From contig CM102286.1 in the NCBI GenBank assembly GCA_046563655.1, forward strand, positions 2,356,001-2,420,000: DNA of 64,000 nucleotides, written 5' to 3'. The DNA comes from Yuukianura sp. NJ FZ-2021. Its lineage: Eukaryota. The position numbers and the translations under genes were made by a program. The notes below the pieces were generated by a model, which did not search any database, was not told where the DNA came from, and was given only the letters and a program-made list of their open reading frames with translations. This document shows positions 3,001 to 29,228 of the stretch, in pieces (position 1 is the first letter of the stretch; every line of letters begins with the position of its first letter).

Positions 3001-6000
3001 GAAAAATGCTCAACCCTTGAGCATCACCCTACCTTGTTCTGAAGTGTGAAAGTGGCTTTAGTGAAAAAATCTCAAATGACGCATTTTTTGAAGTGTGAAG
3101 GTGGCTTTAGTGAAAAAATCTCAAATGACGCATTTTTTGAAGTGTGAAGGTGGCTTTAGTGAAAAAATCTCAAATGACGCATTTTTTGAAGTGTGAAAGT
3201 GGCTTTAGTGAAAAAATCTCAAATGACGCATTTTTTGAAGTGTGAAAGTGGCTTTAGTGAAAAAATCTCAAATGACACATTTCTTGAAGTGTGAAAGTGG
3301 CTTTAGTGAAACTAAACGGGTTGCAGCTTAAAGGCTAACACAAACAACAGCATCAACATAGGCTAACCATAGCCATAACATAGCAACAACATAGGTTAAA
3401 CATAGCCATAACATAGCAACAACATTGGCTGAACATAGCCATAACATAGCGACAACATTGGCTATACATAGCCATAACATAGCAACAACATAGCCACAAC
3501 ATAGTCACAACATAGTCACAACATAGCAACAACATTGGCTAAACATAGCCATAACATAGCAACAACATTGGCTATACATACCCATAACATAGCAACAACA
3601 TTGGCTGAACATAGCCATAACATAGCAACAACATTGGCTGAACATAGCCATAACATAGCAACAACATAGTCTAAACACAGCCACAACATAGTCAGAGCAC
3701 AGCATAGTTAAGAGCTCAAGGTGCACAACATTTTTATGGAAACGGTTTTTTCACATTTGGTGCAATTGTGCACAAAAAGGCCCCACATCTGAACTGAAAA
3801 TTATGAGCGACGTTTCGTTGCTTAAATCTCGTGAAAAAGGCTTCCTAATATTTTCCTTGAACCGGTTTACGGACAGCCGGTCTAGAAGCCGTATCAATTG
3901 TCAACGCCCTTCAGAAGAAAAATGCTCAACCCTTGAGCATCACCCTACCTTGTTCTGAAGTGTGAAAGTGGCTTTAGTGAAAAAATCTCAAATGACGCAT
4001 TTTTTGAAGTGTGAAGGTGGCTTTAGTGAAAAAATCTCAAATGACGCATTTTTTGAAGTGTGAAGGTGGCTTTAGTGAAAAAATCTCAAATGACGCATTT
4101 TTTGAAGTGTGAAAGTGGCTTTAGTGAAAAAATCTCAAATGACACATTTCTTGAAGTGTGAAAGTGGCTTTAGTGAAACTAAACGGGTTGCAGCTTAAAG
4201 GCTAACACAAACAACAGCATCAACATAGGCTAACCATAGCCATAACATAGCAACAACATAGGTTAAACATAGCCATAACATAGCAACAACATTGGCTGAA
4301 CATAGCCATAACATAGCGACAACATTGGCTATACATAGCCATAACATAGCAACAACATAGCCACAACATAGTCACAACATAGTCACAACATAGCAACAAC
4401 ATTGGCTAAACATAGCCATAACATAGCAACAACATTGGCTATACATACCCATAACATAGCAACAACATTGGCTGAACATAGCCATAACATAGCAACAACA
4501 TAGCCACAACATAGTCACAACATAGTCTAAACACAGCCACAACATAGTCAGAGCACAGCTTAGTTAAGAGCTCAAGGTGCACAACATTTTTATGGAAACG
4601 GTTTTTTCACATTTGGTGCAATTGTGCACAAAAAGGCCCCACATCTGAACTGAAAATTATGAGCGACGTTTCGTTGCTTAAATCTCGTGAAAAAGGCTTC
4701 CTAATATTTTCCTTGAACCGGTTTACGGACAGCCGGTCTAGAAGCCGTATCAATTGTCAACGCCCTTCAGAAGAAAAATGCTCAACCCTTGAGCATCACC
4801 CTACCTTGTTCTGAAGTGTGAAAGTGGCTTTAGTGAAAAAATCTCAAATGACGCATTTTTTGAAGTGTGAAGGTGGCTTTAGTGAAAAAATCTCAAATGA
4901 CGCATTTTTTGAAGTGTGAAGGTGGCTTTAGTGAAAAAATCTCAAATGACGCATTTTTTGAAGTGTGAAAGTGGCTTTAGTGAAAAAATCTCAAATGACG
5001 CATTTTTTGAAGTGTGAAAGTGGCTTTAGTGAAAAAATCTCAAATGACACATTTCTTGAAGTGTGAAAGTGGCTTTAGTGAAACTAAACGGGTTGCAGCT
5101 TAAAGGCTAACACAAACAACAGCATCAACATAGGCTAACCATAGCCATAACATAGCAACAACATAGGTTAAACATAGCCATAACATAGCAACAACATTGG
5201 CTGAACATAGCCATAACATAGCGACAACATTGGCTATACATAGCCATAACATAGCAACAACATAGCCACAACATAGTCACAACATAGTCACAACATAGCA
5301 ACAACATTGGCTAAACATAGCCATAACATAGCAACAACATTGGCTATACATACCCATAACATAGCAACAACATTGGCTGAACATAGCCATAACATAGCAA
5401 CAACATTGGCTGAACATAGCCATAACATAGCAACAACATTGGCTGAACATAGCCATAACATAGCAACAACATAGCCACAACATAGTCACAACATAGTCTA
5501 AACACAGCCACAACATAGTCAGAGCACAGCATAGTTAAGAGCTCAAGGTGCACAACATTTTTATGGAAACGGTTTTTTCACATTTGGTGCAATTGTGCAC
5601 AAAAAGGCCCCACATCTGAACTGAAAATTATGAGCGACGTTTCGTTGCTTAAATCTCGTGAAAAAGGCTTCCTAATATTTTCCTTGAACCGGTTTACGGA
5701 CAGCCGGTCTAAAAGCCGTATCAATTGTCAACGCCCTTCAGAAGAAAAATGCTCAACCCTTGAGCATCGCCCTACCTTGTTTTGAAGTGTGAAAGTGGCT
5801 TTAGTAAAAAAATCTCAAATGGCACATTTTTTGAAGTGTGAACATGTCTTTAGCGAACAAATCTCAAATGGAACATTTTTTGAAGTGTGAAAGTGTCTTA
5901 GTGGCTTTAGTAAAAAAACCTCAAATGACACATTTTTTGAAGTGTGAAAGTGGCTTTAGTAAAAAAACCTCAAATGACACATTTTTTGAAGTGTGAAAGT

Positions 6001-9000
6001 GGCTTTAGTGAAAAAATCTCAAATGACGCATTTTTTGAAGTGTGAAGGTGGCTTTAGTGAAAAAATCTCAAATGACGCATTTTTTGAAGTGTGAAGGTGG
6101 CTTTAGTGAAAAAATCTCAAATGACGCATTTTTTGAAGTGTGAAGGTGGCTTTAGTGAAGAAATCTCAAATGACGCATTTTTTGAAGTGTGAAGGTGGCT
6201 TTAGTGAAAAAATCTCGAATGACACATTTCTTGAAGTGTGAAAGTGGCTTTAGTGAAGAAATCTCAAATGACACATTTCTTGAAGTGTGAAAGTGGCTTT
6301 AGTGAAGAAATCTCAAATGGCACATTTTTTGAAGTGTGAAAGTGGCTTTAGTGAAAAAATCTCAAATGACACATTTCTTGAAGTGTGAAAGTGGCTTTAG
6401 TGAAAAAATCACAAATGACACATTTTTTGAAGTGTGAAAGTGGCTTTAGTGAAAAAATCTCAAATGACGCATTTTTTGAAGTGTGAAGGTGGCTTTAGTG
6501 AAAAAATCTCAAATGACACAGTTTTTGAACTGTGAAAGTGGCTTTAGTGAAAAAATCTCAAATGACACAGTTTTTGAACTGTGAAAGTGGCTTTAGTGAA
6601 AAAATCTCAAATGACACATTTTTTGAAGTGTGAAAGTGGCTTTAGTGAAGAAAAACCCAAATGGCACATTTTTTGAAGTGTGAAAGTGGCTTTAGTGAAA
6701 AAATCTCAAATGACACATTTTTTGAAGTGTGAAAGTGACTTTAGTGAAAAAATCTCAAATGACACATTTCTTGAAGTGTGAAAGTGGCTTTAGTGAAACT
6801 AAACGGGTTGCAACTTAAAGGCTAACACAAACAACAGCATCAGCATAGGCTAACCATAGCCATATCATAGCAACAACATAGGTTAAACATAGCCATAACA
6901 TAGAAACAACATCGGCTGAACATAGCCATAACATAGCAGCAACATTGGCTATACATAGCCATAACATAGCAACAACATAGCAACAACATAGCAACAACAT
7001 TGGCTATACATAGCCATAACATAGCAACAACATAGCCACAACATAGTCACAACATAGCAACAACATTTGCTAAACATAGCCATGACATAGCAACAACATA
7101 GCCACAACATAGTCACAACATAGTCACAACATAGTCTAAACACAGCCACAACATAGTCAGAGCATAGCATAGTAAAGAGCTCAAGGTGCACAACATTTTT
7201 ATGGAAACGGTTTTTTCACATTTTGGTGCAATTGTGCACAAAAAGGCCCCACATCTGAACTGAAAATTATGAGCGACGTTTCGTTGCTTAAATCTCGTGA
7301 AAAAGGCTTCCTAATATTTTCCTTGAACCGGTTTACGGACAGCCGGTCAAAAAGCCGTATCAATTGTCAACGCCCTCCAGAAGACCAATGCTCAACCCTT
7401 GAGCATCGCCCTACCTTGTTTTGAAGTGTGAAACTGGCTTTAGTGAAAAAATCTCAAATGGCACATTTTTTGAAGTTTGAAAGTGGCTTTAGTGAAAAAA
7501 TCTCAAATGACACATTTCTTGAAGTGTGAAAGTGGCTTTAGTGAAACTAAACGGGTTGCAACTTAAAGGCTAACACAAACAACAGCATCAACACAGGCTA
7601 ACCATAGCCATAACATAGCAACAACATAAGTTAAACATAGCCATAACATAGCAACAACATTGGCTGAACATAGCCATAACATAGCAACAACATTGGCTAT
7701 ACATAGCCATAACATAGCAACAACATAGCCACAACATAGTCACAACATAGCAACAACATTGGCTAAACATAGCCATAACATAGCAACAACATTGGCTATA
7801 CATAGCCATAACATAACAACAACATTGGCTAAACATAGCCATAACATAGCAACAACATTGGCTATACATAGCCATAACATAGCAACAACATTGGCTATAC
7901 ATAGCCATAACATAGCAACAACATTGGCTAAACATAGCCATAACATAGCAAGTGTGAAAGAAGTGTGAAAGTGGCTTAGTGGCTTTAGTAAAAAATCTCA
8001 AATGACACATTTTTTGAAGTGTGAAAGTGGCTTTAGTGAAAAAATCTCAAATGACATTTTTTGAAGTGTGAAGGTGGCTTTAGTGAAAAAATCTCGAATG
8101 ACACATTTCTTGAAGTGTGAAAGTGGCTTTAGTGAAGAAATCTCAAATGACACATTTCTTGAAGTGTGAAAGTGGCTTTAGTGAAAAAATCTCAAATGAC
8201 ACATTTTTTGAAGTGTGAAAGTGACTTTAGTGAAAAAATCTCAAATGACACATTTCTTGAAGTGTGAAAGTGGCTTTAGTGAAACTAAACGGGTTGCAAC
8301 TTAAAGGCTAACACAAACAACAGCATCAGCATAGGCTAACCATAGCCATATCATAGCAACAACATAGGTTAAACATAGCCATAACATAGAAACAACATCG
8401 GCTGAACATAGCCATAACATAGCAGCAACATTGGCTATACATAGCCATAACATAGCAACAACATAGCAACAACATAGCAACAACATTGGCTATACATAGC
8501 CATAACATAGCAACAACATAGCCACAACATAGTCACAACATAGCAACAACATTGGCTAAACATAGCCATGACATAGCAACAACATAGCCACAACATAGTC
8601 ACAACATAGTCACAACATAGTCTAAACACAGCCACAACATAGTCAGAGCATAGCATAGTAAAGAGCTCAAGGTGCACAACATTTTTATGGAAACGGTTTT
8701 TTCACATTTTGGTGCAATTGTGCACAAAAAGGCCCCACATCTGAACTGAAAATTATGAGCGACGTTTCGTTGCTTAAATCTCGTGAAAAAGGCTTCCTAA
8801 TATTTTCCTTGAACCGGTTTACGGACAGCCGGTCAAAAAGCCGTATCAATTGTCAACGCCCTCCAGAAGACCAATGCTCAACCCTTGAGCATCGCCCTAC
8901 CTTGTTTTGAAGTGTGAAACTGGCTTTAGTGAAAAAATCTCAAATGGCACATTTTTTGAAGTTTGAAAGTGGCTTTAGTGAAAAAATCTCAAATGACACA

Positions 9001-9816
9001 TTTCTTGAAGTGTGAAAGTGGCTTTAGTGAAACTAAACGGGTTGCAACTTAAAGGCTAACACAAACAACAGCATCAACACAGGCTAACCATAGCCATAAC
9101 ATAGCAACAACATAAGTTAAACATAGCCATAACATAGCAACAACATTGGCTGAACATAGCCATAACATAGCAACAACATTGGCTATACATAGCCATAACA
9201 TAGCAACAACATAGCCACAACATAGTCACAACATAGCAACAACATTGGCTAAACATAGCCATAACATAGCAACAACATTGGCTATACATAGCCATAACAT
9301 AACAACAACATTGGCTAAACATAGCCATAACATAGCAACAACATTGGCTATACATAGCCATAACATAGCAACAACATTGGCTATACATAGCCATAACATA
9401 GCAACAACATTGGCTAAACATAGCCATAACATAGCAAGTGTGAAAGAAGTGTGAAAGTGGCTTAGTGGCTTTAGTAAAAAATCTCAAATGACACATTTTT
9501 TGAAGTGTGAAAGTGGCTTTAGTGAAAAAATCTCAAATGACATTTTTTGAAGTGTGAAAGTGGCTTTAGTGAAAAAATCTCAAATGACACATTTCTTGAT
9601 ACGTGAAAGTGGCTTTAGTGAAAAAATCTCAAATGACACATTTTTTTAAGTGTGAAAGTGGCTTTAGTGAAAAAATCTCAAATAGCACATTTTTTGAAGT
9701 TTGAAAGTGGCTTTAGTGAAACTAAACGGGTTGCAACTTAGCCATAACATAGCAACAACATTGGCTGAACATAGCCACAACATAGCAACAACATTGGCTA
9801 TACATAGCCATAGCAT
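1..9816. repeat. Nested (composite) satellite array, running off the left edge of the window
   Basis: The spacer beginning GAGCTCAAGGTGCAC recurs at 25, 996, 1940, 2796, 3712, 4568, 5539, 7177 and 8663. Each unit is a ~240-bp spacer, tandem 49-mers (TGAAGTGTGAAAGTGGCTTTAGTGAAAAAATCTCAAATGACGCATTTTT), a linker (CTAAACGGGTTGCAGCTTAAAGGCTAACAC...) and an 11-bp-based array (AACATAGCCAT/AACATAGCAAC/AACATTGGCTG, 33-bp super-period). Confidence 0.97.
5783..6798. repeat. Locally expanded 49-bp subarray (about 20 copies)
   Basis: Run of 49-mer variants with no spacer or 11-mer block, against 4-5 full copies in the units to the left. Confidence 0.9.
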
Positions 9817-12901: not shown

Positions 12902-13848
12902 CTAAGATCCGAAGAGAGTGTCGTCCTTGTACTGTGAAAACATGAGTCTCTTGTCTTTAAGTTGATGAAAGAGTTGCAGAGCGTCTGCGTACTGCAGCAG
13001 CACGTCGCTGAGCCAAGGGACGTAGCACTCTGTCTGAAAACAGTCGAACTTCACATCTCCCCGAGCCTGGAGCATCACATACACTGCAAATACTAATGGA
13101 TGTAAAAACTGACTGCAACATCTTGTTTGAGGGCGGGCAGAAGTGACTTCATGTTGCGACTCGAGATCAGTTCGTCTGTCATCCTTTTCTTAGGAATGAT
13201 GAGTGCATTTCGTCCTTTGTGGAAACAGCTGATGATTGTTGAGCGTATAGAGTGCCTCTTCGGTTGACTTGACAGGATCCTGCAGAGTTGCTTGGAGAAA
13301 GTGAAGACAGTTCTGGAGATGGTTGCAGAGTCCTGGACTTGCTGTAACTTCCAATTCCCATGCAGAATAGAGTGAATATGAGTGCGGCATTTGCTCCGCT
13401 TAATCGTGATGTCAGCCTGCATTCGTGATGTTATTCTGTTCTCCGAGCAGAGTGGCTGTGCACTTGATGGTGTCAAGGGCGTTGCGAGAGGCTGTGGCCA
13501 ACACGAGCTTGTCCAGTTTGAGAGGAGTCAGCAGTCCGCCCACTGGCATCGGAAAATGACGAGCACATTCCTACGTTAAACACAATGTATATGTGAGTTA
13601 ACTCTGTCACATAAAAGGCAAAGGTCAAAAGGTCAAACTGACTGTATTTTATGGATTACCTCGACTACTAGGCTCAGACCACTGAGGGATAACGGAACTT
13701 GATGTTGTAGGATCCAGTCGAATTCTTGCTGCTGTAAAATCATGAAAAAACTTTCATTTTTAAGAGTTTGCATAAACTAGTTAAAACGTTGGTTAAACGA
13801 TTAGAGACTTACCAATGCCAATAGTTCCCACTTCTCCGGATCCGTCAT
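12902..13848 (-). pseudogene. ROGDI: Rogdi homolog, frameshifted copy
   Basis: Spliced MTDPEKWELLAL|QQEFDWILQHQVP...|ECARHFP..., then WKLQQVQD, KGRNALIIPKK, LPALKQDVAVSFYI and ECYVPWLSDVLLQYADALQLFHQLKDKRLMFSQY match the Rogdi family. The last exon needs several frame changes and has an in-frame stop at 13093-13095. Confidence 0.85.
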
Positions 13849-14408
13849 TGTGAAGATCAGAGGTCAAAGGTCAGCACTGCCAGTTAGTTGGACTTGGAAA
13901 AATCGATTAAAAGCCAGTGTCAGTTCCAACTTTAATTTAAGACCAGCTGACGGCTGAAGGAATGTTTAACGACACTTATTGTAGCCACAAAGTGGAGCCA
14001 CGTTGCGGATACACGTAATGACCACCTTTTGTGTCAATCTATGTTGCCATATTATAATATCTTACATTAAATGAACGTGGCTGCATTAGTTGCCACCCAT
14101 ACAAAGCCATTTACTCTGTTTAAAAAAAAGAAAAGAGGTGGATACACTGCATGACTACAACAATAACCTTTAAAGCTTACTCCAACCCACCTCGCAATAT
14201 GAATTACCATAGGGGCTGACTAAAAGTCGGATTCGTTAGATCCGTTTTGGTTTGGTGCGAAAATTATGGCGTCTTTTGCTACTTTCTTTAAAAGTCTACA
14301 GTCGATTTACTGAAATAATTTTTTTTCCCGAAAAGTGGAATAAAATTGAAATGACCATCAAAATATTACCAAAACTGCAAAATTTCATGTTTTTTTTTTT
14401 GGATACGT
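13482..14408. repeat. ~930-bp direct segmental duplication, copy 1 (copy 2 at 20291-21220)
   Basis: Collinear from TTGYGAGAGGCTGTGGCC to TTTTGGATACGT. Covers the Rogdi 5' exons and upstream region. Confidence 0.93.
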
Positions 14409-15144
14409 TGTACTCATTGTGTTTGTGTCTTTCGTTTGCATGAGCCTGTTAATGAACAATCAAAGTGCAAAAAACAGTGTTTTGAAACTTTCACTATTTT
14501 TGTCTTTGATCTAACGCGGATGCGGATGTGGAGTTGATTACAAAAATGACTGTAATTTTGTTGTGACTTCCGATTTGTTGTGGTTCACATCCACAATGCA
14601 GGAAAGTGTAAAAAGCAAATTTTTGGCACACTTTTGTGGTTGGGCGTGAGATACTGTTTGAAGGCAAGTCAAAAACAGGTTTTCGTCAATTTTTGGGGTA
14701 ATATGCTCCTTGAATTTTGAAGAAACAATTTACCAACTTTATATTTAATTATATGTAATAAATTATACGTAATCTTTATTGTCACTACAAACCGTGTGGA
14801 GAAGTTAAACAAAAACCTTGGAATGCTTTGAAAAGGGACAAATTTTGTGAGTATTTTGGAATATTTTGAAAGTACTAAATTCGATAGTGTTTTGAATGTC
14901 GTTGTGACTATTTAACAATACGACTCCTAGCAAAAATCAGTTGGATTTACAAAATTGGAAAAAAACATTATTACAATTTATAGATTTGTTACAAAAAAGC
15001 CTAGTTGAATAAATTATGAACGTAATTAGAGTTAGTTAAGTTTAGATGAGGAGATATCACTCCGTACGCTTATGCTGAGATAGCTTTATCCCGGGATAAG
15101 CTCTTATCCTAATGCATAGTTGTTGCCATTTGGTGTGGAGTAGT

Positions 15145-18100
15145 TCAGTATTCTGGTGGGAGACTGACGATACACTGCTTCTGTTCGAGGCATTTCCTGT
15201 TGACCAAGTCCAAGAGGACAGGAAGGGCTTCAGGGGGCACACGGAAGTTATCCTTTGTGCAACTGAAGGCGTCTGCTGCAACAATCCCCAAGTAGCAAGA
15301 TATTTCCCACAAAGCCAGGTACAGCCCAATCACAGCAATCCGACGGTTACCATTCGCCATGTTCCGCCACATCCTATCCACACCCTCACTACAACCAGAA
15401 AAACAGTTACATCAACACAACTTACAGCAACACAAGTTAAATCAACAGAGTACTTACAGTGTAGTTGGCCGAACTTCCTTGGAGTCTGCGTTCCACATAC
15501 AGATTGCGAGACTACGCGATCTCTCGCAAACCATAATTTCACCCTGTTTACAAAAATCCACATTGGAACAACGTTTTTGAAATTGACATTGTTATAGAGA
15601 GAGAAGTTTTGTTGTAAAAACTAACATGGTAGTTGAGGGGATCCAAGAATTTATGAAAAACTGTGCGCATCTTCTGAATGTAACCAAGAACACTATCGCG
15701 AGACTGTTGGGCATAATTCGCCAACTTCTGTTCCAAGTCCTTCAAAAATTGAATTCAAATTACAACAAATCCTACACACTTTCTATTCTACTCAATTTAA
15801 AAATTACTTTTCTCTCATTCGCCAACTGATTCAGTTCTGTCGTGCATTTCCGATGATTCGTCCACTCCTCTTCAATCACTTGCCTGATTTTCTCAGAATC
15901 CACAGGACGCCAGCCCAACCGAGATTGGAACCACTCCCATCGCTGTTTCAAAAAACAAAATTTCCAAAATTCTATGCAAAATTTCTATTTCAAAAATTAC
16001 CTCTCGTTGGAGCTTCTCCTTCCCATCCAGAATTTCGAGCAGAAACTGAGTTTCATTCATAGCATGCATTTCCGATTCTTCCACAGCAGCTTCGAACAGT
16101 ACATACCTTGGCAATAATACAGATATAATAATTATATAATATAATAATAAATTACACTTTCCAACATTTTTTAAAATTCATAAAGTCATTGGAAGTGACA
16201 ATTTCTTTTTTCAAGTTGCCATTACCACAAGTGTGTGTTATCCATGAAGTACTTGACATTTTCTTCGTCGAGAAGCATAAGGCGCAGTCTTTCCGGTGAC
16301 AGTTTAAGCTGTCGGAGGAATTTGGTTAACTCCCTTCCGGTGAACATCTTGGGACGAACCTGTTGGAACTGAGGACGAGGATCGGCAGAAGTGATGGTAA
16401 TCACGTTGGCCAGTAGTGGGTTTCTGCGTTCGATTCTTCTGGAAAACTTGATTTGGGATCCAAAGTCTTTCTGGAGCTGAGGAAAGGCACGGAGAGAGAC
16501 AGTCAGCTCAACGGAACCAAAGTCCTGTCCATCACTAATGGCATCTAAACACATATCATTATTGAAATAAACAATTAGTTATATTATAATAACACAAATG
16601 AGTTGTACTATGGAGGTTGCGTCCACAGATGCTGGTAGTTTCGTCACGGTGGTCCAGCACAAGATCATAGCCCAGTCCCAGCATCACGGCCAAAATGTAC
16701 GAACTCTTCCCCTCCTCCGAGTTCCCCTTCAACTTCAGAATTCCATGAGTAGACACATCCGCCACCGTGGGCTCTTGGTTCTTCGCCATGATGTTCGTAA
16801 TTCGGATGTTCGAAATGAAAAACTGACCAGACTGAACATCAAAATCAGAATATCCAAATAAAAACTTTAAAATTTCCTTAAAAAAAAAGAATTTTGAAAC
16901 ATTTTCCAATAAAGTCCTTACCCCTCCGCGCGATTCGTGAACAGATAAAGTTGACACTGTTGAAGCAGAAGAAGGAGATGGAGATGGTGAGGCCGGCGAG
17001 CGTGAAGTTTCTAAAAAGAACACAATATTTAACAACAAATCAAATAAAATGAATAAATTAAACTACAATGTGTTTTTTTTAATGCTGAACTGACCTCCCC
17101 GGAATGGGATTAGTTGTCCATTGGTAGTTTCGTTGACTTGTTGATGTTGAACGGTGTGTGCCAACTTGTGGTTATTGAGTTCCTGGATGGAACCAGCTGA
17201 GTAAGTGCATTGGTTGCATCCATACTTGGACTTGACTTCGTGTCCCTGTCGGTGGGTTACTAGAAATGCGTACTTGGTAGTGGCATAAGGGCAATGCCAG
17301 CACTTGAACGAAGTCTCCACGGGAAGGGGCTCTCCACTTGTCGTCACTGTCATGTAAGTGAACTTCGGATTTCCAGAAATCAACTTCTCGTAATCTTCCG
17401 GAGTCAGAGTTTCCGGAGGGGCTCCGTTCGTGCCATAATCTATAAGTTACAATTTCACAATTTTAGTCTTAAGTTAAAAGTGAAAAAGTGAAAAAGTTGA
17501 GAACTTACTTGATGATGCGGTAGCGGGACTGGTGTTTCCGAAACTGGGAGAGGAAGGAAGTGATGCATTGTTGACAGAGTTGACATGAGCATCCATGTGG
17601 TTCCGCATGTAGTCATCTCGGTTGGATGCATAGTCACAGTAGGTGCAGTTGAACTTCAATCCAGTCTTCCCATGTTGTTCCAGGTGGATCTTCAAGTTGA
17701 ATGCAGTAGAAAGTATGGAGGGACACTTTGGACATTGGAAATGAGCGTTAGTCCGAGTGCCCACCACTTTTGGGGGGCGTCTTCCTGGTCCACTTCCTCT
17801 GCACTTCCGCCTCGTCCTAGCTCCCACCGTCACTGGATCATCAACCTCAACGGCAGTTTCGTTGATTTGGGCATGTTGAGTGGTATGAGCCACTTGGTTG
17901 TTGTTGAGGTCTGGTGGGTCTGGAATTGCCCCGCTCGTGTCTTGACCTGTAAGGGACAATTTTTTGGGTGAATTGCAATTACCCGGACGAAGTTGAAAAG
18001 TGGAGGAGGAGGAGGAGGGTATATGAAATGCACTTTTCAAATCTGTCCGGATAACTGCAATTCACCCTATTTTTTTTAGTTTTACCGCGTTTTTTTTAAG

Positions 18101-18948
18101 TTAAAAGTTGAATTTACCTGATAATGCTGGACTGGCATTTCTGGGAGGAGTTTGGACGGAAGTGGATGGCCGAGAACAAACAACTTTTGGGGAACGTGTA
18201 GGCCCACCTCCACTGCCATGCCGCTTCCGCTTAGCTCCTGGAATCTCCGCTGCATTTTCACTTCCTAAGTACATAAAGCATTCAGGTTAAAGTTGACATG
18301 TGGTTAAGGGTGAGAAAGTTCCCTTTCGTTTTTTCAAAATTTTGGCTGGTCTTTTTAATTTTTTTAAAAATTCTTCGTATGTTTGTGAGTTCAGAACCGT
18401 CGAGTTTACGTCTTTATCACGTTTTGTTTACAAGTTATGAATTTTCAAAAACTTTCAAAATTTCAAAGAATAATTCAAAATTTTTGAAAATTCATAACTT
18501 GAGAACGAAAAGTGATAGAAAGGTAACCTCGACGGTTCTGAACTCGCAAAAGGATGTAGAATTTTCTAGACAATTAAAAAGACTACCCAAAATTTTGAAA
18601 CAAAAATTCGAATTTTTTTTTTGAAAAATTTGAAAATTCATAACTTTGGAACGGAAAGTGGTACAGGGCTCATCTTTCACGTAAGTACATTTACACATAT
18701 GAAAAATTGTTAAAAACTTTAAAAGGGCCGAAAAAAAAAATTCCAACGCAGCAATGTTTTCGGAATTTTTTCAAAATTTTGGGTGGTCTTCGTCTTAGGT
18801 ATTTCGAAAAATTTTTTTTTCAAAACTTTGAAAATTCATTTAATGACTCTTTTGCAGGAAAATTGTATGTTTTCTTACCTCTATCTACCTTCCGCAGACG
18901 TCCACAAAAGCGACATCCCCGGCTTCCTCCACAACTGCAATCGCTGCT
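15145..18948 (-). CDS. Four C2H2 zinc fingers fused to a hinge-less SMC6-like (SMC5/6 family) ATPase head; start exon not located
   Basis: Twelve phase-consistent GT-AG exons: 18948-18879, 18264-18118, 17946-17509, 17439-17095, 17010-16922, 16831-16609, 16544-16226, 16106-16001, 15942-15808, 15739-15626, 15543-15458, 15388-15145. They total 2316 nt = 771 aa plus stop, with no internal stop seen. Four CX2CX12HX3H fingers; Walker A GNSEEGKSS followed by YILAVMLGLG; NLHNAISDGQDFGSVELTV; C-lobe RNMANGNRRIAVIGLYLALWEI...IVAADAF...KQCIVSLP. Confidence 0.82.
18387..18545. repeat. Intronic inverted repeat (foldback or MITE remnant)
   Basis: Perfect 18-bp arms GAGTTCAGAACCGTCGAG (18387-404) and CTCGACGGTTCTGAACTC (18528-545), with weaker internal symmetry, inside the 614-bp intron of the ZnF-SMC gene. 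Confidence 0.7.
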
Positions 18949-20290
18949 CTTTAAAACAAAAATAAAATAAGTTTAGTCTTTAGTTTCACGATTATTAGTC
19001 TCCAATGAAATCGAAGGGTCTCCACTTTGTTTTCGAATTCCCAGATTCAGAATTTTCTGGCGCTAAAAAATGGGACACCCCAAGGTTGCTATAGGAAGAG
19101 AATGTCTTTAACAGGTTAGGCAATACCTCCCGTTTTTCAAAAATCTCGCGACGAACTTTTTTTTTCACTCAAGTTTCACCCAGACTTTTTTAAATAGTGC
19201 AAATTTTATTGCTGAACAATTAAATTTGAGTTCACAGTCACCTGCCAAAGGCAGACTTGTTTTGTGCAAAAATTTAAAGGTTTGTATCAAACTGAACGTT
19301 CAAAATGAATGAGAAAATTCGTTTTCCAAAAATTGTCCAGGAAACGAGACTTGCTGTGATTGTCTGTTCATTTTTGAATGGGAATGGCACAAAGTCCATA
19401 AGAAAGTGTCCTTGGTGGTATTCGAACGAAAGTTTTAACAATTGTTGGGGTCAATACTGGGATCATATTTGCAAATTTTCAGCCCCCCAGAAACGATAGG
19501 TCAACGGAGACTTGAAGTCAAAGGTCAACATATCATCCTATGACAACCCCATGCACACAGCATATCGCTAGAACGGGCTTGACCTCGTGATTCAGAAAAT
19601 ATATATGTGTCAATATTTATGACGTAAGAGAACGAAGTTGTGGTGCCTTGAGTTGCTAAACAAAAAAGGTTCAATGGGAAGCTCTTGGGTTTGTTACACT
19701 TTGACCTTTTTTGCATTGCACTTTTTTGGGCTTTATTTCAGTGAAAAATTACCAACTGCAATTTTTCACTTTATTGAATGCCAAGTCTGTTCTATTCTAT
19801 CATCCTTCCTGGTGGAAACCACGAAGCAACAACAATGGAAAACAAGCGCGAAAATGGAATGGAATGCAACGCGAATGGAACAGGAATACCACGAAGTATG
19901 GATTCAGCGTAACTAGACTGCCTAACCTCTTGTTCACGAACATTAGGAAACCTCCAGTATGATATTCGGCTCATCTAGTTACTACAAGGCGTCTTCCCAT
20001 CATCGTACAATGGAAGAGCAAGTAATCAAAGCCCGGGAAATTCTTTTAAAAAAAAGTTCTAACCTCCCATTGAAAGTTCGTAGTGGAATCTGAACTTTCG
20101 CTCATTGTTGTCTTCACTTTAGCGATTTTTGAAGTTTGTCTCTCGTTGCACTAGAGCTGTCACTTTAAAAACTTGTACTTCCGATATGCTGTCCAGTAGA
20201 GTAGGTTGTTGGTGTTCTGGAGCAGATTATCTTTGGTAAGTGTGGTAATGCTGGTTAAAGTGGGAACAGTTCTCAAGTAGTTGTAAGAAA

Positions 20291-20662
20291 TTGTGAGAGG
20301 CTGTGGCCTACACGAACTTGTCCAGTTTGAGAGGAGTCAGCAGTCCGCCTACTGGCATCGGAAAATGACGAGCACACTCCTACGTCAAACACAATGTATA
20401 TGTTAGTGTTAGGTAACTCTGTCACTTAAATGGCAAAGGTCAAAAGGTCACACTTTAGTTTATGAATTACCTCCACTACTAGGCTCAGACCACTGAGGGA
20501 TAACGGAACTTGGTGTTGTCGGATCCAGTCAAATTCTTGCTGCTGTAAAATCATGTAAAACATTCATTTTTAACAGTTGGCTAGCATAAACTAGTTAAAA
20601 CGTTGGTTAAACGATAAGAGACTTACCAATGCCAATCGTTCCCACTTCTCCCGATCCGTCAC
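20291..20662 (-). pseudogene. ROGDI: Second, 3'-truncated Rogdi copy
   Basis: Same first two exons and start of the third as 13482-13848. The start codon is changed from ATG to GTG (20662-60) and homology ends at 20291. Confidence 0.85.
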
Positions 20663-21025
20663 TGTGAAGATCAGAGGTCAAAGGTCAGCACTGCCAGTTA
20701 GTTGGACTTGGAAAAATCGATTAAAAGCCAGTGTCAGTTCCAACCTTAATTTAAGAGCAGCTGACGGCTGAAGGAATGTTTAACACCACGTATTGTAGCC
20801 ACAAAGTGGAACCACGTCGCGGATACAAGTAATGACCACCTTTTGTGTCAATCTATGCTGCCATATTATAATATCTTACATTAAATGAACGTGGCTGCAT
20901 TAGTTGCCACCCATACAAAGCCATTTACTCTGTTTAAAAAAAAGAAAAGAGGTGGATACACTGCATGACTACAACAATAACGTTTAAAGCTTACTCCAAC
21001 CCACCTCGCAATATGAATTACCATA

Positions 21026-22161
21026 GGGGCTGACTAAAAGTCGGATTCGTTAGATCCGTTTTGGTTTGGTGCGAAAATTATGGCGTCTTTTGCTACTTTC
21101 TTTAAAAGTCTACAGTCGATTTACTGAAATAATTTTTTTTCCCGAAAAGTGGAATAAAATTGAAATGACCATCAAAATATTACCAAAACTGCAAAATTTC
21201 ATGTTTTTTTTTGGATACGTCCAGCATTAGGTTAGGTATTGAATTATTTCAGTATTGAAGTAAGTAAGTAAGTAAGTAAGGAAGTGAGTAAGTTCAACCT
21301 TACTAGGGTAAGGTTGAACCTAACATAAGGATACAATTAGTTAATCCATGGCGTACGTCAACACTTTTCAAAAAACACAATGGTGCTACTAATCCAAAGA
21401 ATTGGCTGAACATGACTTCAAGTAACACACTAATCCTAATCTTTGCGATATTAGCGTCGCGCGCGAGAAACTTCTAATCTGTTCATTTGATAGCTAAATT
21501 TTAAACAAGTAATTATACCGATTTAGTCGATAATTAGCGAAATTCGGGTGCTTCTCAACGTCACACGTTAAGAAGCTGATTTCAAAAATGAGTTGTTCCA
21601 CTGGGAACTCAAGCTTCCTTGACAACCAAATCGTCTTAAGAGGTTACGTACTACCTCCGTTGTTGTTTACCAAAAAAATAAAAATAACAAAAAACTGAGT
21701 ACCATTGGTACCAATTTTAAAAAAATAAAATTTTGGTACCACTATCCTATGTAAAATGCGCAAAAATTGTTTATAATGTCATGGTTACAACACCCAGAAA
21801 TGCAACTGAACTTTTTTCAAAATTTAGAAAAAACATGTTGTAGTACGTAACCTTGTATTCACAAACCTTGCTGGGAACTAATGTTCTTGATACTGAGCGT
21901 GATTTTTGTAACTCCTCAGCATTTCGCATGTTCGCAGCCAATAGTTCGCAGCGGTTCGCAGCGGAATAGTAGGGTGAACTTCAGACACCAGAAGAAAGGG
22001 GTAGTTTTTTCATCCAGTGACTTCCTAGCATTTCCCAGTGGTGGACTCGAACAAGGAGGTTACGGTTTTTGTCGTTCCCTGTTATTTCCCACGCTCCTGG
22101 ACAATGTTACGTCACTTTAGACAGTAACTTCGATAGCACTTCAGACTTTTAGTCAGGGCCC
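21026..22161. mobile_element. Candidate non-autonomous TIR element
   Basis: Left end GGGGCTGACTAAAAGTCGGA against right end TCAGACTTTTAGTCAGGGCCC (imperfect inverted). Contains (GTAA)n and a 12-bp-stem hairpin at 21292-21319. No exact TSD. A solo left end also occurs at ~14212. Confidence 0.45.
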
Positions 22162-24141: not shown

Positions 24142-25004
24142 AGGTCAAAGTATCTGGTAGTGAATGCTGATGAAGGAGAGCCCGGTACTTGTAAAGATCG
24201 TGACATCATGCGGCACGACCCACACAAGTTAGTGGAAGGATGCTTAGTGGCTGGAAGAGCAATGGGAGCCAGGGCTGCTTACATCTACATCAGAGGAGAG
24301 TTCTACAATGAGGCATCTAACATGCAAGTAGCCATCAACGAGGTAAGCTAACAAATACTTCGACCAATCAGCTGTTTGCCTAAATGTCTCAAATTGGAGG
24401 TTTTCCAACTTCATTTTATGAAATCTGCCTTTCGTTTTTAGGCTTACCAACGTGAGCTGATTGGAAAGAATGCTTGTGACTCAGGCTACGACTTTGACGT
24501 GTTTATGCATCGTGATGCTGGTGCCTACATCTGCGGAGAGGAAACTAATCGAAAACTGATCGAAAGCCTGGAAGGAAAACCTCGCCTCAAGCCTCCTTTC
24601 CCAGCTGACATTGGGGTATTCGGATGTCCAACGACAGTGGCCAACGTCGAAACCGTGGCAGTAGCCCCTGCGATTTGTCGACGCGGCGGAACATGGTTTC
24701 TGTCCTTTGGGAGGCCCCGCAACTCGGGAACGAAGTTCTTCAATATCTCTGGGCATGTAAAATATCCATGCACCGAGCACCGTTGAAGAAGAAATGTCAA
24801 TTCTACTAAAGTAAGTCTTTTACTACAGTACAAGTTAGAAAGATGCGATCCCGTAACTATAAATGCACGCCAATTTCAAAATTGTTCTGTTCTTGTATTT
24901 TAGGGAGTTGATTGAGCGCCATTGTGGTGGAGTGACTGGCGGATGGGACAATTTGCTGGGTGTCATTCCTGGGGGGCTCCTCTACTCCGATTATCCCAAA
25001 AAAG
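24142..25004 (+). pseudogene. NDUFV1: NADH dehydrogenase 51-kDa flavoprotein, central exons
   Basis: [18 protein letters not shown]...[10 protein letters not shown]...[26 protein letters not shown]...[13 protein letters not shown]. Frameshifts come from a 7-bp duplication (~24775) and an extra G (~24975), and there are indels around [16 protein letters not shown]. Confidence 0.93.
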
Positions 25005-26792: not shown

Positions 26793-27610
26793 TGCACGAC
26801 TCCTACAACCCAGCACCAGCAACCAATGCAGTTTACAACGGCGGCAGGATCTTTTACTGGATTTGGTATTCCAATTACCCAGGCCATGTTCAACGGAAAC
26901 ACAGTTCTTCTGCCTCAACTTCAACTTGCTGTTATAGGAAACAGCGCTCAGATTACAAGCAAGAGAGGGAATAACTTACCGGTGAAAAGGCTGGACAAGG
27001 AGGGGAGTCGGGGTGGTCGGAAGAACGAGACAACAACGCGCAGAAGTTCACACAACGCCATTGAGAGACGGTATCGCTCAAGTATCAACGACGAGTTCAT
27101 TGAGTTGAAGAATTTGGTTAGTAATCAAAAACATACTTACTACTAACTAATCCGAAGGTTAGTTAAATCTAGTTGTGTTTTGGATATTTTTAGGTATGTT
27201 CTCCGAGCGATCCTAAACGGAGAACGTTCATAAAGCTGCAATTCTGCGTTCATCGATTGCCACAATCCGTTATCTCCAAACGTCAAATGGTCGATTGGAT
27301 TTGGATAAAGAGAATTGTGAGCTGAAGAAGTCGATGTCGCAGTGTTTGACTTGTCGAAACGACATGACATTTCGTGGAATCTTGGCTGGAGCGAATCCTG
27401 GAACTCCGCCACAAACCGAAACAGAATCCACGGATTCCTCGAATCGTCCTTCACCAAACGAAGATGTCAAACCCAACGCCAAGATCAATAAATCTCCACT
27501 TCTGCTCTTCAGTCTCGCCGCAGGACTGTTTCTAATTAACCCAATTACCAACCACATTGACTCTAACCACTCCACTGCTCATCCGCATAGTCGTGTCGAA
27601 CGATCAATCG
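26793..27610 (+). pseudogene. SREBP-like fragment (bHLH-Zip and first TM helix), frameshifted
   Basis: [26 protein letters not shown] carries the SREBP-type Tyr in the basic region. Helix 2 is HKAAILRSSIATIRYLQTSN and the TM is NKSPLLLFSLAAGLFLINP with the NP motif. Exon 2 (from 27194) needs a frameshift near 27215-27225; otherwise it stops at 27323-25. Confidence 0.8.
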
Positions 27611-27686
27611 GTAACTTACTTAACTTACTTAACCTTACTGTAACGATTTATTGTTTAATAATCTTGTTTCGTTCGATTACTTACAG

Positions 27687-29228
27687 CTTTAGTCCATCCT
27701 GACAACCAAATGCTTGGGTTTTTGGCATACAACCCAGTAGATGCGTTGTGTGCCATTGAACTTCCTCACAATGAGTTCCTTCTCGTCTTCAATACGTTGG
27801 GTGTCTTTGTGGATGTGCAAGGAAGGAAATCCAGGGACACTGAAATCATGTATCCGGCTATCCCCACCTTTGTTGCCTTCTCCGACGGAAATCTACTCAT
27901 TTACAGCGAAACTCACATTGACGTGTTCGATTCTGACACTGGAGAGTGGCTCCAGACGCTGAATCTCAAGAAGAGTCGGCCACTTTGCCGAAACGGGGAG
28001 CTTGGTTTTGCATTCGTCGCGGATTTGCCACACATCATTTACTTGTCCGATCTAAGCAAAGGTTTGTTCAGCTAAATTTTATTATGAGTTCAGTAATTTT
28101 AAAAATTCAATTTCAAATTTTTGGAATTTTGATTTCAGTTGATCGTGTCCGAATTCCGGATCCAGAAATTGTACGACAGAGGACACGAAGGAAGTTTTCA
28201 GTGAGGGAGAACGCTAAAGCAGCTAAAGCGTAAGAAATTTTCGGTTTAATGCTATGTGGCTTGTCCTAAAAACTTGATAGAAAGTTAAACTCATTTTGTG
28301 ATACGTCTGGTGTCACTTGCTTAATTGCTCTCTCAGGAAACTGATGCTGCTGCTGGAAAATCAGCAACTCATTCGGTTAGTCTTTTGGTGGAAACTTGTG
28401 GTTGTTGTGATTTTAAAGTTTGAACTTTTTTTTTCTGATTTTTTAAACTTTTCTTTTTAGTTTGATTCTGAACAAACAAGAGTGTATTGATTTACATGCT
28501 TGTTTTTAAATTAAAACTTCTGGCTTTAACTGTGATTAACGAAAAGCTTGCTTACTAATTCACGGCTGTTTGGCACTCGTACCGTTTTATGTGAAATGAA
28601 ATATGAAATGAACTTAGAATTTAACACTGGGTTTTGTTTTTTTTTAGGAACACTGATCGGAGGTCAAAGTTGATTTCAGCTCCCTCCAACTTCAATCATA
28701 TTAGTCACATGGGCCCTGGAGATGGAATTCAAATTCAGCGATTGATGGATCTACCATCAGCCTTAGAAGCCACATCAGACGCACAGGGCATGCAGAGAGT
28801 GCGAAGTATGCTGCATAATTCAGCCAATCGTGGGTCTCCGTCACAGCGTCAGTTTCCGGAACCACCAAGACGATCTCTAAGTCATCAAGGAAATATACCC
28901 AATCAACCACCGCATTACAATGGAGTCAGTCCCCCTGGACTACCGCCAAGGAGACCAATGGTTCCGCCGCCAATGAGGCCACAAGCTAGATCTCCACGTG
29001 ATAATAACTCAGAGGTATTTTTTAGTCTAACTTTTCAAAATTTTGAAGTTATGTTTTTCAAAATTTGTGTTATATTTAACTTTTTAGGAAGGAACTTTGG
29101 ATGGGAGTCCTCGCCATTCGCTGACTTCCAATAACAGTTCAAATCTGAGCAGTCCACCATCACCTTCCGGAAGGCCGGGTTCGTCAAGCTATGAAAGTCA
29201 AATGGATCAGAATGACGAGAGATTGTAG
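27687..29228 (+). CDS. gek: MRCK/genghis khan (CDC42-binding kinase), 3' exons only: distal CNH, CRIB and tail
   Basis: CNH sequence [21 protein letters not shown]...[36 protein letters not shown]; tail [13 protein letters not shown]. Exons 27687-28061, 28139-28229, 28648-29014, 29088-29228. Kinase, C1 and PH exons are absent from the window. Confidence 0.88.

What the first reader, a model, noticed from the sequence alone, without database searches (positions are those of the whole stretch)
15626..16226. SMC arm collapsed to ~110 aa: no hinge, naturally head-only SMC
Seen: only three small exons (106, 135 and 114 nt) separate the N-lobe from the C-lobe: WYVLFEAAVEESEMH...EKLQRE-RWEWFQSRLGWRPVDSEKIRQVIEEEW...ELNQLANERKDLEQKLANYAQQSRD. 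This reads as two short helical, heptad-like stretches with a turn. The introns (58-119 bp) are too small to hide missing exons. Known: SMCs have several hundred residues of antiparallel coiled coil and a hinge, and Rad50 has a CXXC hook; neither is visible here. Inference: a clean in-frame internal deletion kept the head and the neck coiled coil, the region where the kleisin N-terminus binds. The protein could not form a hinge-closed ring.
Basis: partly seen in the sequence, partly recalled or inferred. Interest (0 to 1): 0.8.

Follow-up and report, generated by a model that had tools for sequence, protein, structure and literature searches.

The report
Zinc-finger protein with hingeless SMC-like head
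This is a real, spliced gene for a DNA-binding zinc-finger protein whose other half looks like the ATPase head of a chromosome-organising SMC protein, with the long arm and hinge replaced by a short stub and the catalytic residues lost, so it probably acts as a tethered adaptor or decoy rather than a motor.

Summary
On the minus strand, exons of 106, 135 and 114 nt (16106-16001, 15942-15808, 15739-15626) are all that lies between two lobe-like regions. Contigs of run X4 skip exactly these introns. DNA contigs of X1-X3 are colinear with the window, so there is no sign of assembly collapse.

The gene is larger than the finding says. At least 12 exons encode four C2H2 zinc fingers followed by a 408-aa SMC-like part. 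Eight other family members turned up in metagenome data. Three of them could be modelled and share all six intron positions and phases and a 118-126 aa stub. All regions are under purifying selection.

N-lobe support is weak but coherent:
- an invariant Walker A motif;
- language-model neighbours from AAA_23/AAA_29/MukB;
- sub-threshold Rad50 P-loop hits only;

No tool recognised the C-lobe. Its reading as a degenerate signature motif plus a Walker B motif with Asp-Ala instead of Asp-Glu is by eye.

This is not a recent clean deletion of SMC6. It is an old family of ATPase-dead, head-plus-stub SMC-like proteins fused to zinc fingers. The closest precedent is C. elegans SMCL-1. SMC6 ancestry and the hairpin fold remain unproven.

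The parts
18879..18948 (-). Upstream exon ('exon 0'). Its 3' border is fixed by the X4 contig. Its 5' border (acceptor at 18949-18950) is predicted only. It has no in-frame ATG, so the true start lies in at least one further upstream exon that was not found.
   Evidence: An X4 contig runs on 5' of exon 1 with letters that match 18881-18903 exactly. Sequence read.
18118..18264 (-). Exon 1, a basic Ser/Pro-rich N-terminal region. The ATG at 18274 used in my first model lies in the intron and is not in the mRNA.
   Evidence: (joint 17946/18118; loose end at 18266).
17509..17946 (-). Exon 2, with C2H2 zinc fingers 1 and 2.
   Evidence: Pfam zf-C2H2 E 6.5e-07, 29.9 bits against a cut-off of 25.2, two stretches. 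The intron 1->2 joint is seen in X4.
17095..17439 (-). Exon 3, with C2H2 zinc fingers 3 and 4.
   Evidence: Sub-threshold Pfam zinc-finger hits (zf-C2H2_7th_ZNF462 E 2.2e-05; zf-C2H2 E 0.0086) and a CxxC...HxxxH pattern. Intron 2->3 is predicted only.
16922..17010 (-). Exon 4, a Ser/Pro-rich linker between the fingers and the SMC-like part.
   Evidence: One X4 contig of 364 nt joins exon 3, exon 4 and exon 5, so fingers and SMC-like part are on one mRNA.
16609..16831 (-). Exon 5, first part of the N-lobe with Walker A (GNSEEGKS at 16703-16726).
   Evidence: Walker A GxxxxGKS is kept in 4 of 4 homologues. Atlas neighbours are AAA_29/AAA_23/MukB at 0.96-0.97. 9 of 9 PDB profile hits are the Rad50 P-loop, E 0.3-1.1. 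LmuB E 0.017-0.045 in 2 of 3. AAA_29 E 0.024-0.048 in 2 of the 3 relatives' exon-5 pieces, none for the window's own. All of these are below significance.
16226..16544 (-). Exon 6, second part of the N-lobe. It has strands and helices up to the Q-loop position, which holds Asp or Asn instead of Gln in 9 of 9 family sequences.
16001..16106 (-). Exon 7 (106 nt), ascending part of the stub.
15808..15942 (-). Exon 8 (135 nt), middle of the stub with the invariant Pro (15904-15906), the presumed turn.
15626..15739 (-). Exon 9 (114 nt), descending part of the stub. This is the only part with significant 3.5-residue periodicity.
15458..15543 (-). Exon 10, presumed first strands of the C-lobe.
   Evidence: Conserved in L001-L003. 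Assignment to an ABC C-lobe is by eye only.
15145..15388 (-). Exon 11, presumed C-lobe. It holds a degenerate signature (15346-15360), Walker-B-like hydrophobic strand + Asp-Ala (15268-15285) and the stop codon TGA (15145-15147). The protein ends right after the strand where the H-loop would sit.
   Evidence: 'A-D-A' is invariant in 4 of 4. No tool recognised it. The AF2 model is useless at pLDDT 45.

Best explanation
A real, expressed gene of a small-intron eukaryote. The splice sites look nematode-like, but the organism was not identified. It encodes a protein of more than 750 aa.

Architecture:
- The N-terminal half carries four C2H2 zinc fingers.
- The C-terminal 408 aa are a divergent SMC-type (most like Smc5/6) ABC-ATPase head.
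- The several hundred residues of coiled-coil arm and the hinge are replaced by a conserved stub of about 119 aa, probably a helical hairpin around an invariant proline.
- Walker A and the Walker B aspartate are kept.
- The catalytic glutamate (Ala in 4 of 4), the signature motif and the Q-loop glutamine are lost in the whole family.

Shown: the gene structure, the splicing, the fusion of fingers and head, the family, purifying selection, and the motif states.

Inferred, about 0.8: the 408-aa part is derived from an SMC head.

Inferred, about 0.3: the mechanism. The protein cannot dimerise through a hinge or hydrolyse ATP. It would act as a DNA-sequence-tethered adaptor or 'poison head' that binds a partner SMC head or kleisin, most likely of the SMC5/6 complex, and so recruits or blocks that complex at the sites its fingers read. 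This is analogous to what SMCL-1 does to condensin in C. elegans.
For: Gene and splicing:
- X4 contigs skip 8 of 10 predicted introns at the predicted borders and join exon 3, exon 4 and exon 5.

Family:
- phmmer of exon 6 against 1.84 billion representatives gave 5 hits, all short ORF fragments.
- Four metagenome loci were fetched.
- In L001, L002 and L003, all six junctions between exons 5-11 have homologous GT..AG sites with the same phases.
- The three stub exons are 106/135/114 nt (window), 115/138/114 (L001, L002) and 124/153/102 (L003), from the exon borders. All models have open frames.

Selection:
- Window against L001/L002/L003: pN 0.13-0.48 against pS 0.71-0.87 in every region, including the stub.
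- L001 against L002: dN/dS 0.18, 0.17 (stub) and 0.24.

N-lobe:
- Walker A is kept in 4 of 4.
- Atlas first hit 0.97, with named neighbours AAA_29/AAA_23/MukB.
- 9 of 9 PDB profile hits are the Rad50 P-loop, chain residues 22-62.
- The exon-6 model matches Rad50 residues 61-132. The sequence and structure alignments to one protein therefore abut colinearly.
- In the VIA second look, rows 1-23 of the 50 shown are all SMC or Rad50 heads, and the top 8 are Smc5/6.
- 9 of the first 12 Foldseek ranks are Smc5/6, probability up to 0.94.

Zinc fingers: Pfam. Relatives also carry finger exons upstream.

Precedent: passages of PMC5373644 describe SMCL-1 with the same motif triad.
Against: - No sequence search reached significance for any SMC family. 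Pfam, NCBIfam and PADLOC gave nothing above cut-off on single exons. PDB E-values were 0.3 or higher.
- No tool recognised the C-lobe, and its model had pLDDT 45. That it is an ABC C-lobe rests on my reading of motif order.
- Hairpin: periodicity is not significant in the N-terminal half of the stub.
- No interaction, ATP binding or DNA binding was tested.
- All four relatives' loci come from one metagenome. They may be paralogues of one genome, so the family's breadth is unknown.
Confidence: 0.55

Rival explanations
1. The ATPase-like part is not SMC-derived. It would be another P-loop ABC-type domain of the AAA_23/AAA_29 kind (RecF-, Rad50- or OLD/Lamassu-like, possibly acquired from bacteria) that naturally has a short helical insert, and was later fused to zinc fingers.
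For: Only generic P-loop-region signals were found: Rad50, LmuB, AAA_29 and bacterial or viral Atlas clusters. The C-lobe was unrecognised. A 400-aa head with an insert of about 120 aa has the proportions I recall for RecF (recalled, not tested).
Against: The exon-6 model's best matches are eukaryotic Smc5/6 chains, followed by condensin, cohesin and Rad50 heads. LmuACB chains appear only at ranks 28 and 50. The introns are spliceosomal and conserved. No prokaryotic protein came up among 1.84 billion representatives.
Confidence: 0.15
2. It is an orthologue or close relative of C. elegans SMCL-1, that is, a condensin (SMC-4-class) derived head-only regulator.
For: It has the same defining triad as the paper lists: Walker A kept, imperfect signature, Walker B without the catalytic Glu, short, no hinge (passages of PMC5373644).
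Against: Exon 6 found no annotated protein at all, only 5 unnamed or 'hypothetical' fragments. The best structural matches are Smc5/6, not condensin. The word 'zinc' occurs 0 times in the SMCL-1 paper's main text, and SMCL-1 is said to lack predicted coils. Here a conserved stub remains.
Confidence: 0.1
3. One reading: a recent clean in-frame deletion of the arm and hinge of the organism's own SMC6, leaving an otherwise ordinary SMC6 head plus neck.
For: The lobes are in SMC order. Smc5/6 chains are the best structural matches.
Against: The short stub, its three exons and the intron phases are shared by relatives whose synonymous sites are saturated. Catalytic motifs are lost family-wide. The gene is fused to zinc fingers. 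Exon-level sequence identity to any solved SMC is undetectable.
Confidence: 0.05
4. Assembly artefact or decaying pseudogene.
For: Loose ends of other contigs at 15561 and 16220, and raised depth over several exons, show that near-identical copies exist and could confuse an assembler.
Against: Colinear DNA contigs come from a second assembler. Intron-less contigs match the model. Frames are open in 4 of 4 modelled genes. Purifying selection is seen in every region.
Confidence: 0.02

Closest known systems
SMCL-1 (C44C10.4) of Caenorhabditis elegans, an SMC-like negative regulator of condensins (PMC5373644; abstract and passages read)
   Same: A short SMC paralogue with N- and C-terminal ATPase lobes and no hinge. 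Walker A is kept, the signature is imperfect, and Walker B lacks the catalytic glutamate. It is restricted to one lineage and is proposed to act as a 'poison head' or binding regulator rather than a motor.
   Different: SMCL-1 is described as lacking predicted coils and as binding condensin SMCs. The word 'zinc' does not occur in the paper. Here a conserved stub of about 119 aa remains, four (eight in L001) C2H2 fingers are fused upstream, and the best structural matches are Smc5/6, not condensin. No sequence link to SMCL-1 was seen. A direct alignment was not possible.
Smc6/Smc5 heads of the SMC5/6 complex (PDB 8i13, 8i4w, 7yqh, 8hqs, 7tve, 8t8e, 8t8f)
   Different: There is no arm, no hinge, no catalytic Glu and a degenerate signature. 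The C-terminus ends early. Sequence identity is 14-17% over the aligned part, and no sequence search finds these chains.
Rad50 ABC-ATPase (P. furiosus; PDB 1f2t, 1us8, 3qku, 4ncj)
   Different: The stub has no CxxC zinc hook (one Cys only). E-values are 0.3-1.1.
Canonical SMC architecture (abstract of PMC4255302 as listed: a coiled coil of about 50 nm between head and hinge)
   Same: The order N-lobe, helical region, C-lobe.
   Different: 119 aa instead of the long arm plus hinge. At most about 7 nm if it is a two-helix hairpin (my estimate).

Membership tests
SMC proteins (SMC1-6) | Walker A P-loop near the start of the N-lobe | tested here: met
   GxxxxGKS is kept in 4 of 4 exon-5 homologues.
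SMC proteins (SMC1-6) | N-lobe fold of an SMC/Rad50 head | tested here: inconclusive
SMC proteins (SMC1-6) | Significant match to an SMC sequence profile (such as Pfam SMC_N) | tested here: inconclusive
   No hit on single exons. The whole spliced protein could not be scanned.
SMC proteins (SMC1-6) | ABC signature motif (LSGG type) in the C-lobe | tested here: not met
   The position reads MANGN, MSNGR, MSNGK or LSTGK in the four genes. The assignment of the position is by eye.
SMC proteins (SMC1-6) | Walker B with catalytic glutamate (hhhhDE) | tested here: not met
   Asp is followed by Ala in 4 of 4.
SMC proteins (SMC1-6) | Long antiparallel coiled-coil arm and hinge dimerisation domain | tested here: not met
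   There are 119 aa between the lobes in the window and 118-126 aa (by exon lengths) in L001-L003. Spliced contigs show no further exon.
SMC6 specifically | Groups with SMC6 rather than SMC5 or other SMCs in a tree, or shares intron positions with the organism's SMC6 | not testable with these tools
The top structural rows are one Smc5/6 chain numbered 142-221, which I take to be Smc6 from recalled protein lengths only.
SMCL-1-like proteins (criteria of PMC5373644) | Short length, Walker A kept, imperfect signature, Walker B without Glu, no hinge | tested here: met
   Criteria as quoted.
SMCL-1-like proteins (criteria of PMC5373644) | No predicted coiled coil | tested here: inconclusive
   A helical-looking stub is kept. 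Heptad-like periodicity is significant only in its C-terminal half. No coiled-coil predictor was on hand.
SMCL-1-like proteins (criteria of PMC5373644) | BLAST similarity to C. elegans SMCL-1 | not tested
   No SMCL-1 sequence was available. Indirectly, exon 6 found no annotated protein.
C2H2 zinc-finger proteins | Pfam zf-C2H2 above the gathering score | tested here: met
   Exon 2: 29.9 bits against a cut-off of 25.2, two fingers. The exon 3 fingers are below cut-off (16.9 bits) but have the Cys2-His2 spacing.
Rad50/SbcC | CxxC zinc hook at the apex of the coiled coil | tested here: not met
   The stub has a single Cys and no CxxC.

The most novel reading that the evidence does not exclude
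A family of sequence-specific 'SMC5/6 pilots or decoys'. An array of C2H2 fingers reads particular DNA, perhaps repeats or mobile elements, since the family is multi-copy and its fingers vary in number. A catalytically dead Smc6-like head plus neck then captures the SMC5 head and/or the NSE-4 kleisin. This would either load SMC5/6 at those sites or poison it there. It would be a natural, genetically encoded way of aiming an SMC complex at DNA sequences, and a second, independent invention of the head-only SMC regulator after SMCL-1.
Probability: 0.22. Interest if true: 0.85.

Novelty: new variant of a known kind. Interest (0 to 1): 0.6.

Why it matters
Head-only, hydrolysis-dead SMC paralogues are so far known from one case, SMCL-1, a condensin regulator in some Caenorhabditis species. 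A second family would show that 'poison heads' are a recurrent way to regulate SMC complexes, if it proves to be built on an Smc5/6-like head, keeps the neck-like stub and is welded to a zinc-finger array. It would also offer a natural example of sequence-directed SMC control. How SMC5/6 is brought to or kept from particular DNA is an open question, and this protein would make it testable: find what the head binds and where the fingers sit.

The family is absent from annotated protein sets. Only unnamed or 'hypothetical' ORF fragments were found. Three full-text searches found no description of a zinc-finger-SMC fusion.

Tried and rejected
- Word-index homology searches found nothing: exon 6 'longer' and exon 8 'longer'. 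Exon 11 'near' gave one 71-aa fragment, P0006.
- PDB sequence searches gave only chance-level, unrelated rows or nothing: exon 6 alone, the exon-6 profile, exon 11 and L003 exon 11.
- The Atlas search with exon 11 had a best score of 0.84 and low recognition, so it gave no lead.
- The AF2 model of exon 11 with a 4-row alignment had pLDDT 45 and was not searched further.
- Complex prediction was intended to ask whether the exon-5, 6, 10 and 11 pieces pack together. Nothing was folded.
- No RNA holder was listed among the sequencing runs. X4 is on record as 'DNA?' (guessed), although its contigs lack introns. A processed retrocopy could in principle give the same contigs.
The organism's own SMC6, its intron positions and the paralogue count could therefore not be examined.
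- The search for related loci with the 6-row alignment had no conserved stretch. The 3-row alignment worked.
- LTR-element idea for the 930-bp direct repeats that flank the gene: they have no ORF over 58 aa, no TG..CA ends and no matching flanking duplication, so I rejected it as unsupported.
- Synteny: no flank of L001-L004 resembles the window outside the gene.
- Rfam and tRNA scans of the window found nothing.
- The ATG at 18274 or 18255 as start codon was rejected. 18274 lies in an intron, and 18255 is in a frame that closes in exon 2.
- The 5' end of the gene was not resolved.
Full report
**What is there**

The window is eukaryotic DNA with short GT..AG introns. On the minus strand I built a gene model from coordinates. 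Exon 1 is quoted here with the acceptor corrected.

| Exon | Coordinates | Note |
|---|---|---|
| 1 | 18264-18118 | |
| 2 | 17946-17509 | |
| 3 | 17439-17095 | |
| 4 | 17010-16922 | |
| 5 | 16831-16609 | |
| 6 | 16544-16226 | |
| 7 | 16106-16001 | 106 nt |
| 8 | 15942-15808 | 135 nt |
| 9 | 15739-15626 | 114 nt |
| 10 | 15543-15458 | |
| 11 | 15388-15145 | stop TGA at 15147-15145 |

The finding's coordinates (15626-16226) run from the last base of exon 9 to the last base of exon 6.

**Is the structure real?**

Four runs of one sample hold the stretch. Laid on 15000-18400, the contigs of X1, X2 and X3 are colinear with the window. One X1 contig covers 15307-16261 without a difference.

The contigs of X4 skip 8 of the 10 predicted introns at exactly the predicted borders: 1->2, 3->4, 4->5, 6->7, 7->8, 8->9, 9->10 and 10->11. 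Introns 2->3 and 5->6 were not bridged.
- One X4 contig runs from exon 6 through exons 7, 8, 9 and 10 into exon 11.
- Another joins exon 3, exon 4 and exon 5.

So the three small exons are all that lies between the lobes in the mature message, and the zinc-finger half and the SMC-like half are one transcript.

X4 is on record only as 'DNA?' (guessed). If it were DNA, the contigs would be a processed copy, which also derives from the spliced mRNA.

An X4 contig continues 5' of exon 1 into letters that lie at 18881-18903. An upstream exon therefore ends at 18879. It has no in-frame ATG, so the true start is further upstream and remains unknown.

**The zinc fingers**

Pfam finds zf-C2H2 in exon 2 (E 6.5e-07, 29.9 bits against a cut-off of 25.2, two fingers). 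It gives sub-threshold finger hits in exon 3. The translation shows four Cys2-His2 units.

**The family**

Word-index searches found nothing for exons 6 and 8. A full phmmer scan of 1.84 billion representatives with exon 6 found 5 proteins of 106-276 aa, at 68-35% identity. All are unnamed or 'hypothetical' ORF fragments from metagenome assemblies.

A scan of metagenome contigs gave four loci, L001-L004, all from one metagenome. tblastn with the window model shows the same order in them: finger exons, N-lobe exons, stub exons, C-lobe exons.

A junction search found homologous GT..AG sites with identical phases (1, 2, 0, 0, 0, 2) for all six junctions between exons 5 and 11. This holds in L001, L002 and L003.

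| Gene | Stub exons 7 / 8 / 9 (nt) | SMC-like part (aa) |
|---|---|---|
| Window | 106 / 135 / 114 | 408 |
| L001 | 115 / 138 / 114 | 412 |
| L002 | 115 / 138 / 114 | cut by the contig end |
| L003 | 124 / 153 / 102 | 417 |

All frames are open. With P0002-P0005 there are nine distinct exon-6 sequences. L001 carries eight fingers upstream. No flank is shared between the window and the loci.

**Selection**

Against the window, synonymous sites are saturated (pS 0.71-0.87). Non-synonymous differences are far lower: pN 0.13-0.21 in exon 5, 0.20-0.28 in exon 6, 0.32-0.48 in the stub and 0.20-0.31 in the C-lobe.

For the closest pair, L001 and L002, dN/dS is 0.18, 0.17 (stub) and 0.24.

The stub evolves fastest in amino-acid terms: 30-49% identity to the window, against 49-78% for the lobes. 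It is nevertheless constrained, and its length is conserved. This excludes a pseudogene and a recent deletion.

**Is it an SMC head? N-lobe**

- Walker A (GxxxxGKS) is kept in 4 of 4.
- Exon 5's language-model neighbours are P-loop N-terminal fragments carrying AAA_29, AAA_23 and MukB families. The first hit scores 0.97 with recognition 3417. The tool notes that shuffled sequences reach 0.95 about once in 100.
- The exon-5 profile hits only the Rad50 ABC-ATPase in the PDB: 9 of 9 rows, chain residues 22-62. The E-values of 0.3-1.1 are not significant.
- LmuB (E 0.017-0.045, 2 of 3 sequences) and AAA_29 (E 0.024-0.048 in 2 of the 3 relatives' exon-5 pieces; none for the window's own) are below their cut-offs.
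- Exon 6, folded with a 9-row alignment, gave a usable model (pLDDT 75.5, pTM 0.65).
- Foldseek found no match at E <= 0.001. However, 9 of its first 12 ranks are Smc5/6 entries, with probability up to 0.94 and TM up to 0.52.
- The Rad50 alignments are colinear. The exon-5 profile matches residues 22-62, and the exon-6 model matches residues 61-132.

Taken together this is coherent but weak evidence for an SMC-type N-lobe, nearest to Smc5/6.

**C-lobe**

No tool recognised exons 10-11. The exon-11 model is unusable (pLDDT 45). What follows is my reading of the family alignment:
- a signature-like word (MANGN, MSNGR, MSNGK or LSTGK);
- a conserved helix-like stretch;
- then a hydrophobic strand ending in Asp-Ala, with A-D-A invariant in 4 of 4, where Walker B would have Asp-Glu;
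- then a last hydrophobic strand, after which the protein ends.

At the Q-loop position in exon 6, all nine family sequences have Asp or Asn. Taking this as the Q-loop position is also my reading. The order and spacing fit an ABC C-lobe. The motif states equal those listed for SMCL-1.

Whether the two lobes pack into one head is therefore open.

**The stub**

It is 119 aa with one Cys (no CxxC hook), and is rich in Glu, Leu, Gln, Arg and Lys. A Pro invariant in 4 of 4 lies at position 229 of the SMC-like part (window 15904-15906), dividing it into about 48 and 70 residues.

A 3.5-residue hydrophobic periodicity on the family profile beats shuffles only in the descending half. There, 0.012-0.048 of shuffles reached the observed value in four windows. 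None of the ascending windows was below 0.2.

A helical hairpin is the natural reading, but it is inferred.

**What it most likely does**

With no hinge, it cannot form the hinge-closed SMC dimer. With Ala for the catalytic Glu and a degenerate signature, it should not hydrolyse ATP. Walker A and the Walker B Asp are invariant, so nucleotide binding may remain.

The fingers give DNA-sequence binding. The best-supported model is a DNA-tethered, ATPase-dead head-plus-neck module that binds a partner head or kleisin and recruits or blocks an SMC complex, most likely SMC5/6. The proposed action of SMCL-1 on condensin is the precedent (PMC5373644, passages).

PMC12629237 (passages) reports no SMC-5/6 duplications in the nematodes it analysed, and it removed orthologues shorter than half the length of SMC-4. 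A family like this one would therefore not have been seen there.

**Comparison and novelty**

It fails the defining features of a canonical SMC: arm, hinge, signature and catalytic Glu. It meets the SMCL-1 criteria that could be tested.

It differs from SMCL-1 in three ways: the zinc-finger fusion, the retained stub and the Smc5/6-like rather than condensin-like N-lobe.

Three full-text searches found no paper describing a zinc-finger-SMC-head fusion. I rate it a new variant of a known kind.

**Limits**

- The organism is unidentified.
- SMC6 against SMC5 ancestry is untested.
- The relatives come from one metagenome.
- The 5' exon(s) are missing.
- All functional statements are inference.

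Noticed in passing
window 13482-14408 and 20291-21220: A 930-bp non-coding direct repeat, 94.5% identical, brackets the gene at a spacing of about 6.81 kb. It has no LTR-like ends, no flanking duplication and no ORF over 58 aa. Its origin is unexplained: a dispersed repeat, or the footprint of a segmental duplication.
   Followed up: partly
window 269-9770: The first 9.7 kb are a complex satellite. Arrays of a 49-nt unit alternate with arrays of a 33-nt (11/22-nt sub-period) unit in a higher-order pattern of roughly 0.9-1.5 kb. The long 'ORFs' there are repeat artefacts.
   Followed up: no
window 17199-17320, 15456-15569, 15798-15911, 16482-16709; loose ends at 15561 and 16220: In X2-X4 a second contig with 5 differences and 3-4 times the depth covers part of finger exon 3. 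Depth is also raised over exons 5, 6, 8 and 10. Other contigs diverge inside introns 6 and 9. The genome therefore holds one or more further copies or a divergent allele at 95% identity or more. The stub length of that copy is unknown.
   Followed up: partly
window 18329-18458 / 18474-18603: An inverted repeat with 130-nt arms, 82% complementary and 15 nt apart, lies inside the 614-nt intron between the upstream exon and exon 1.
   Followed up: no
window 18879-20290: The 5' end of the gene is unresolved. The X4 contig holds about 344 nt upstream of exon 1, but only about 70 nt are accounted for by the exon ending at 18879.
   Followed up: partly
L001 1454-3934: The L001 relative has four pairs of C2H2 fingers (eight fingers) and an acidic N-terminal region, against two pairs in the window gene. 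Finger number therefore varies in the family.
   Followed up: partly
window 24442-24786 (+), 26793-27702 (+), 41452-54889 (+), 61944-62464 (-): Other long open exons look like ordinary cellular genes: an NADH dehydrogenase flavoprotein-like piece, a bHLH piece, a very large multi-exon gene and a GATA-finger piece. These names are from my reading, not from a search.
   Followed up: no
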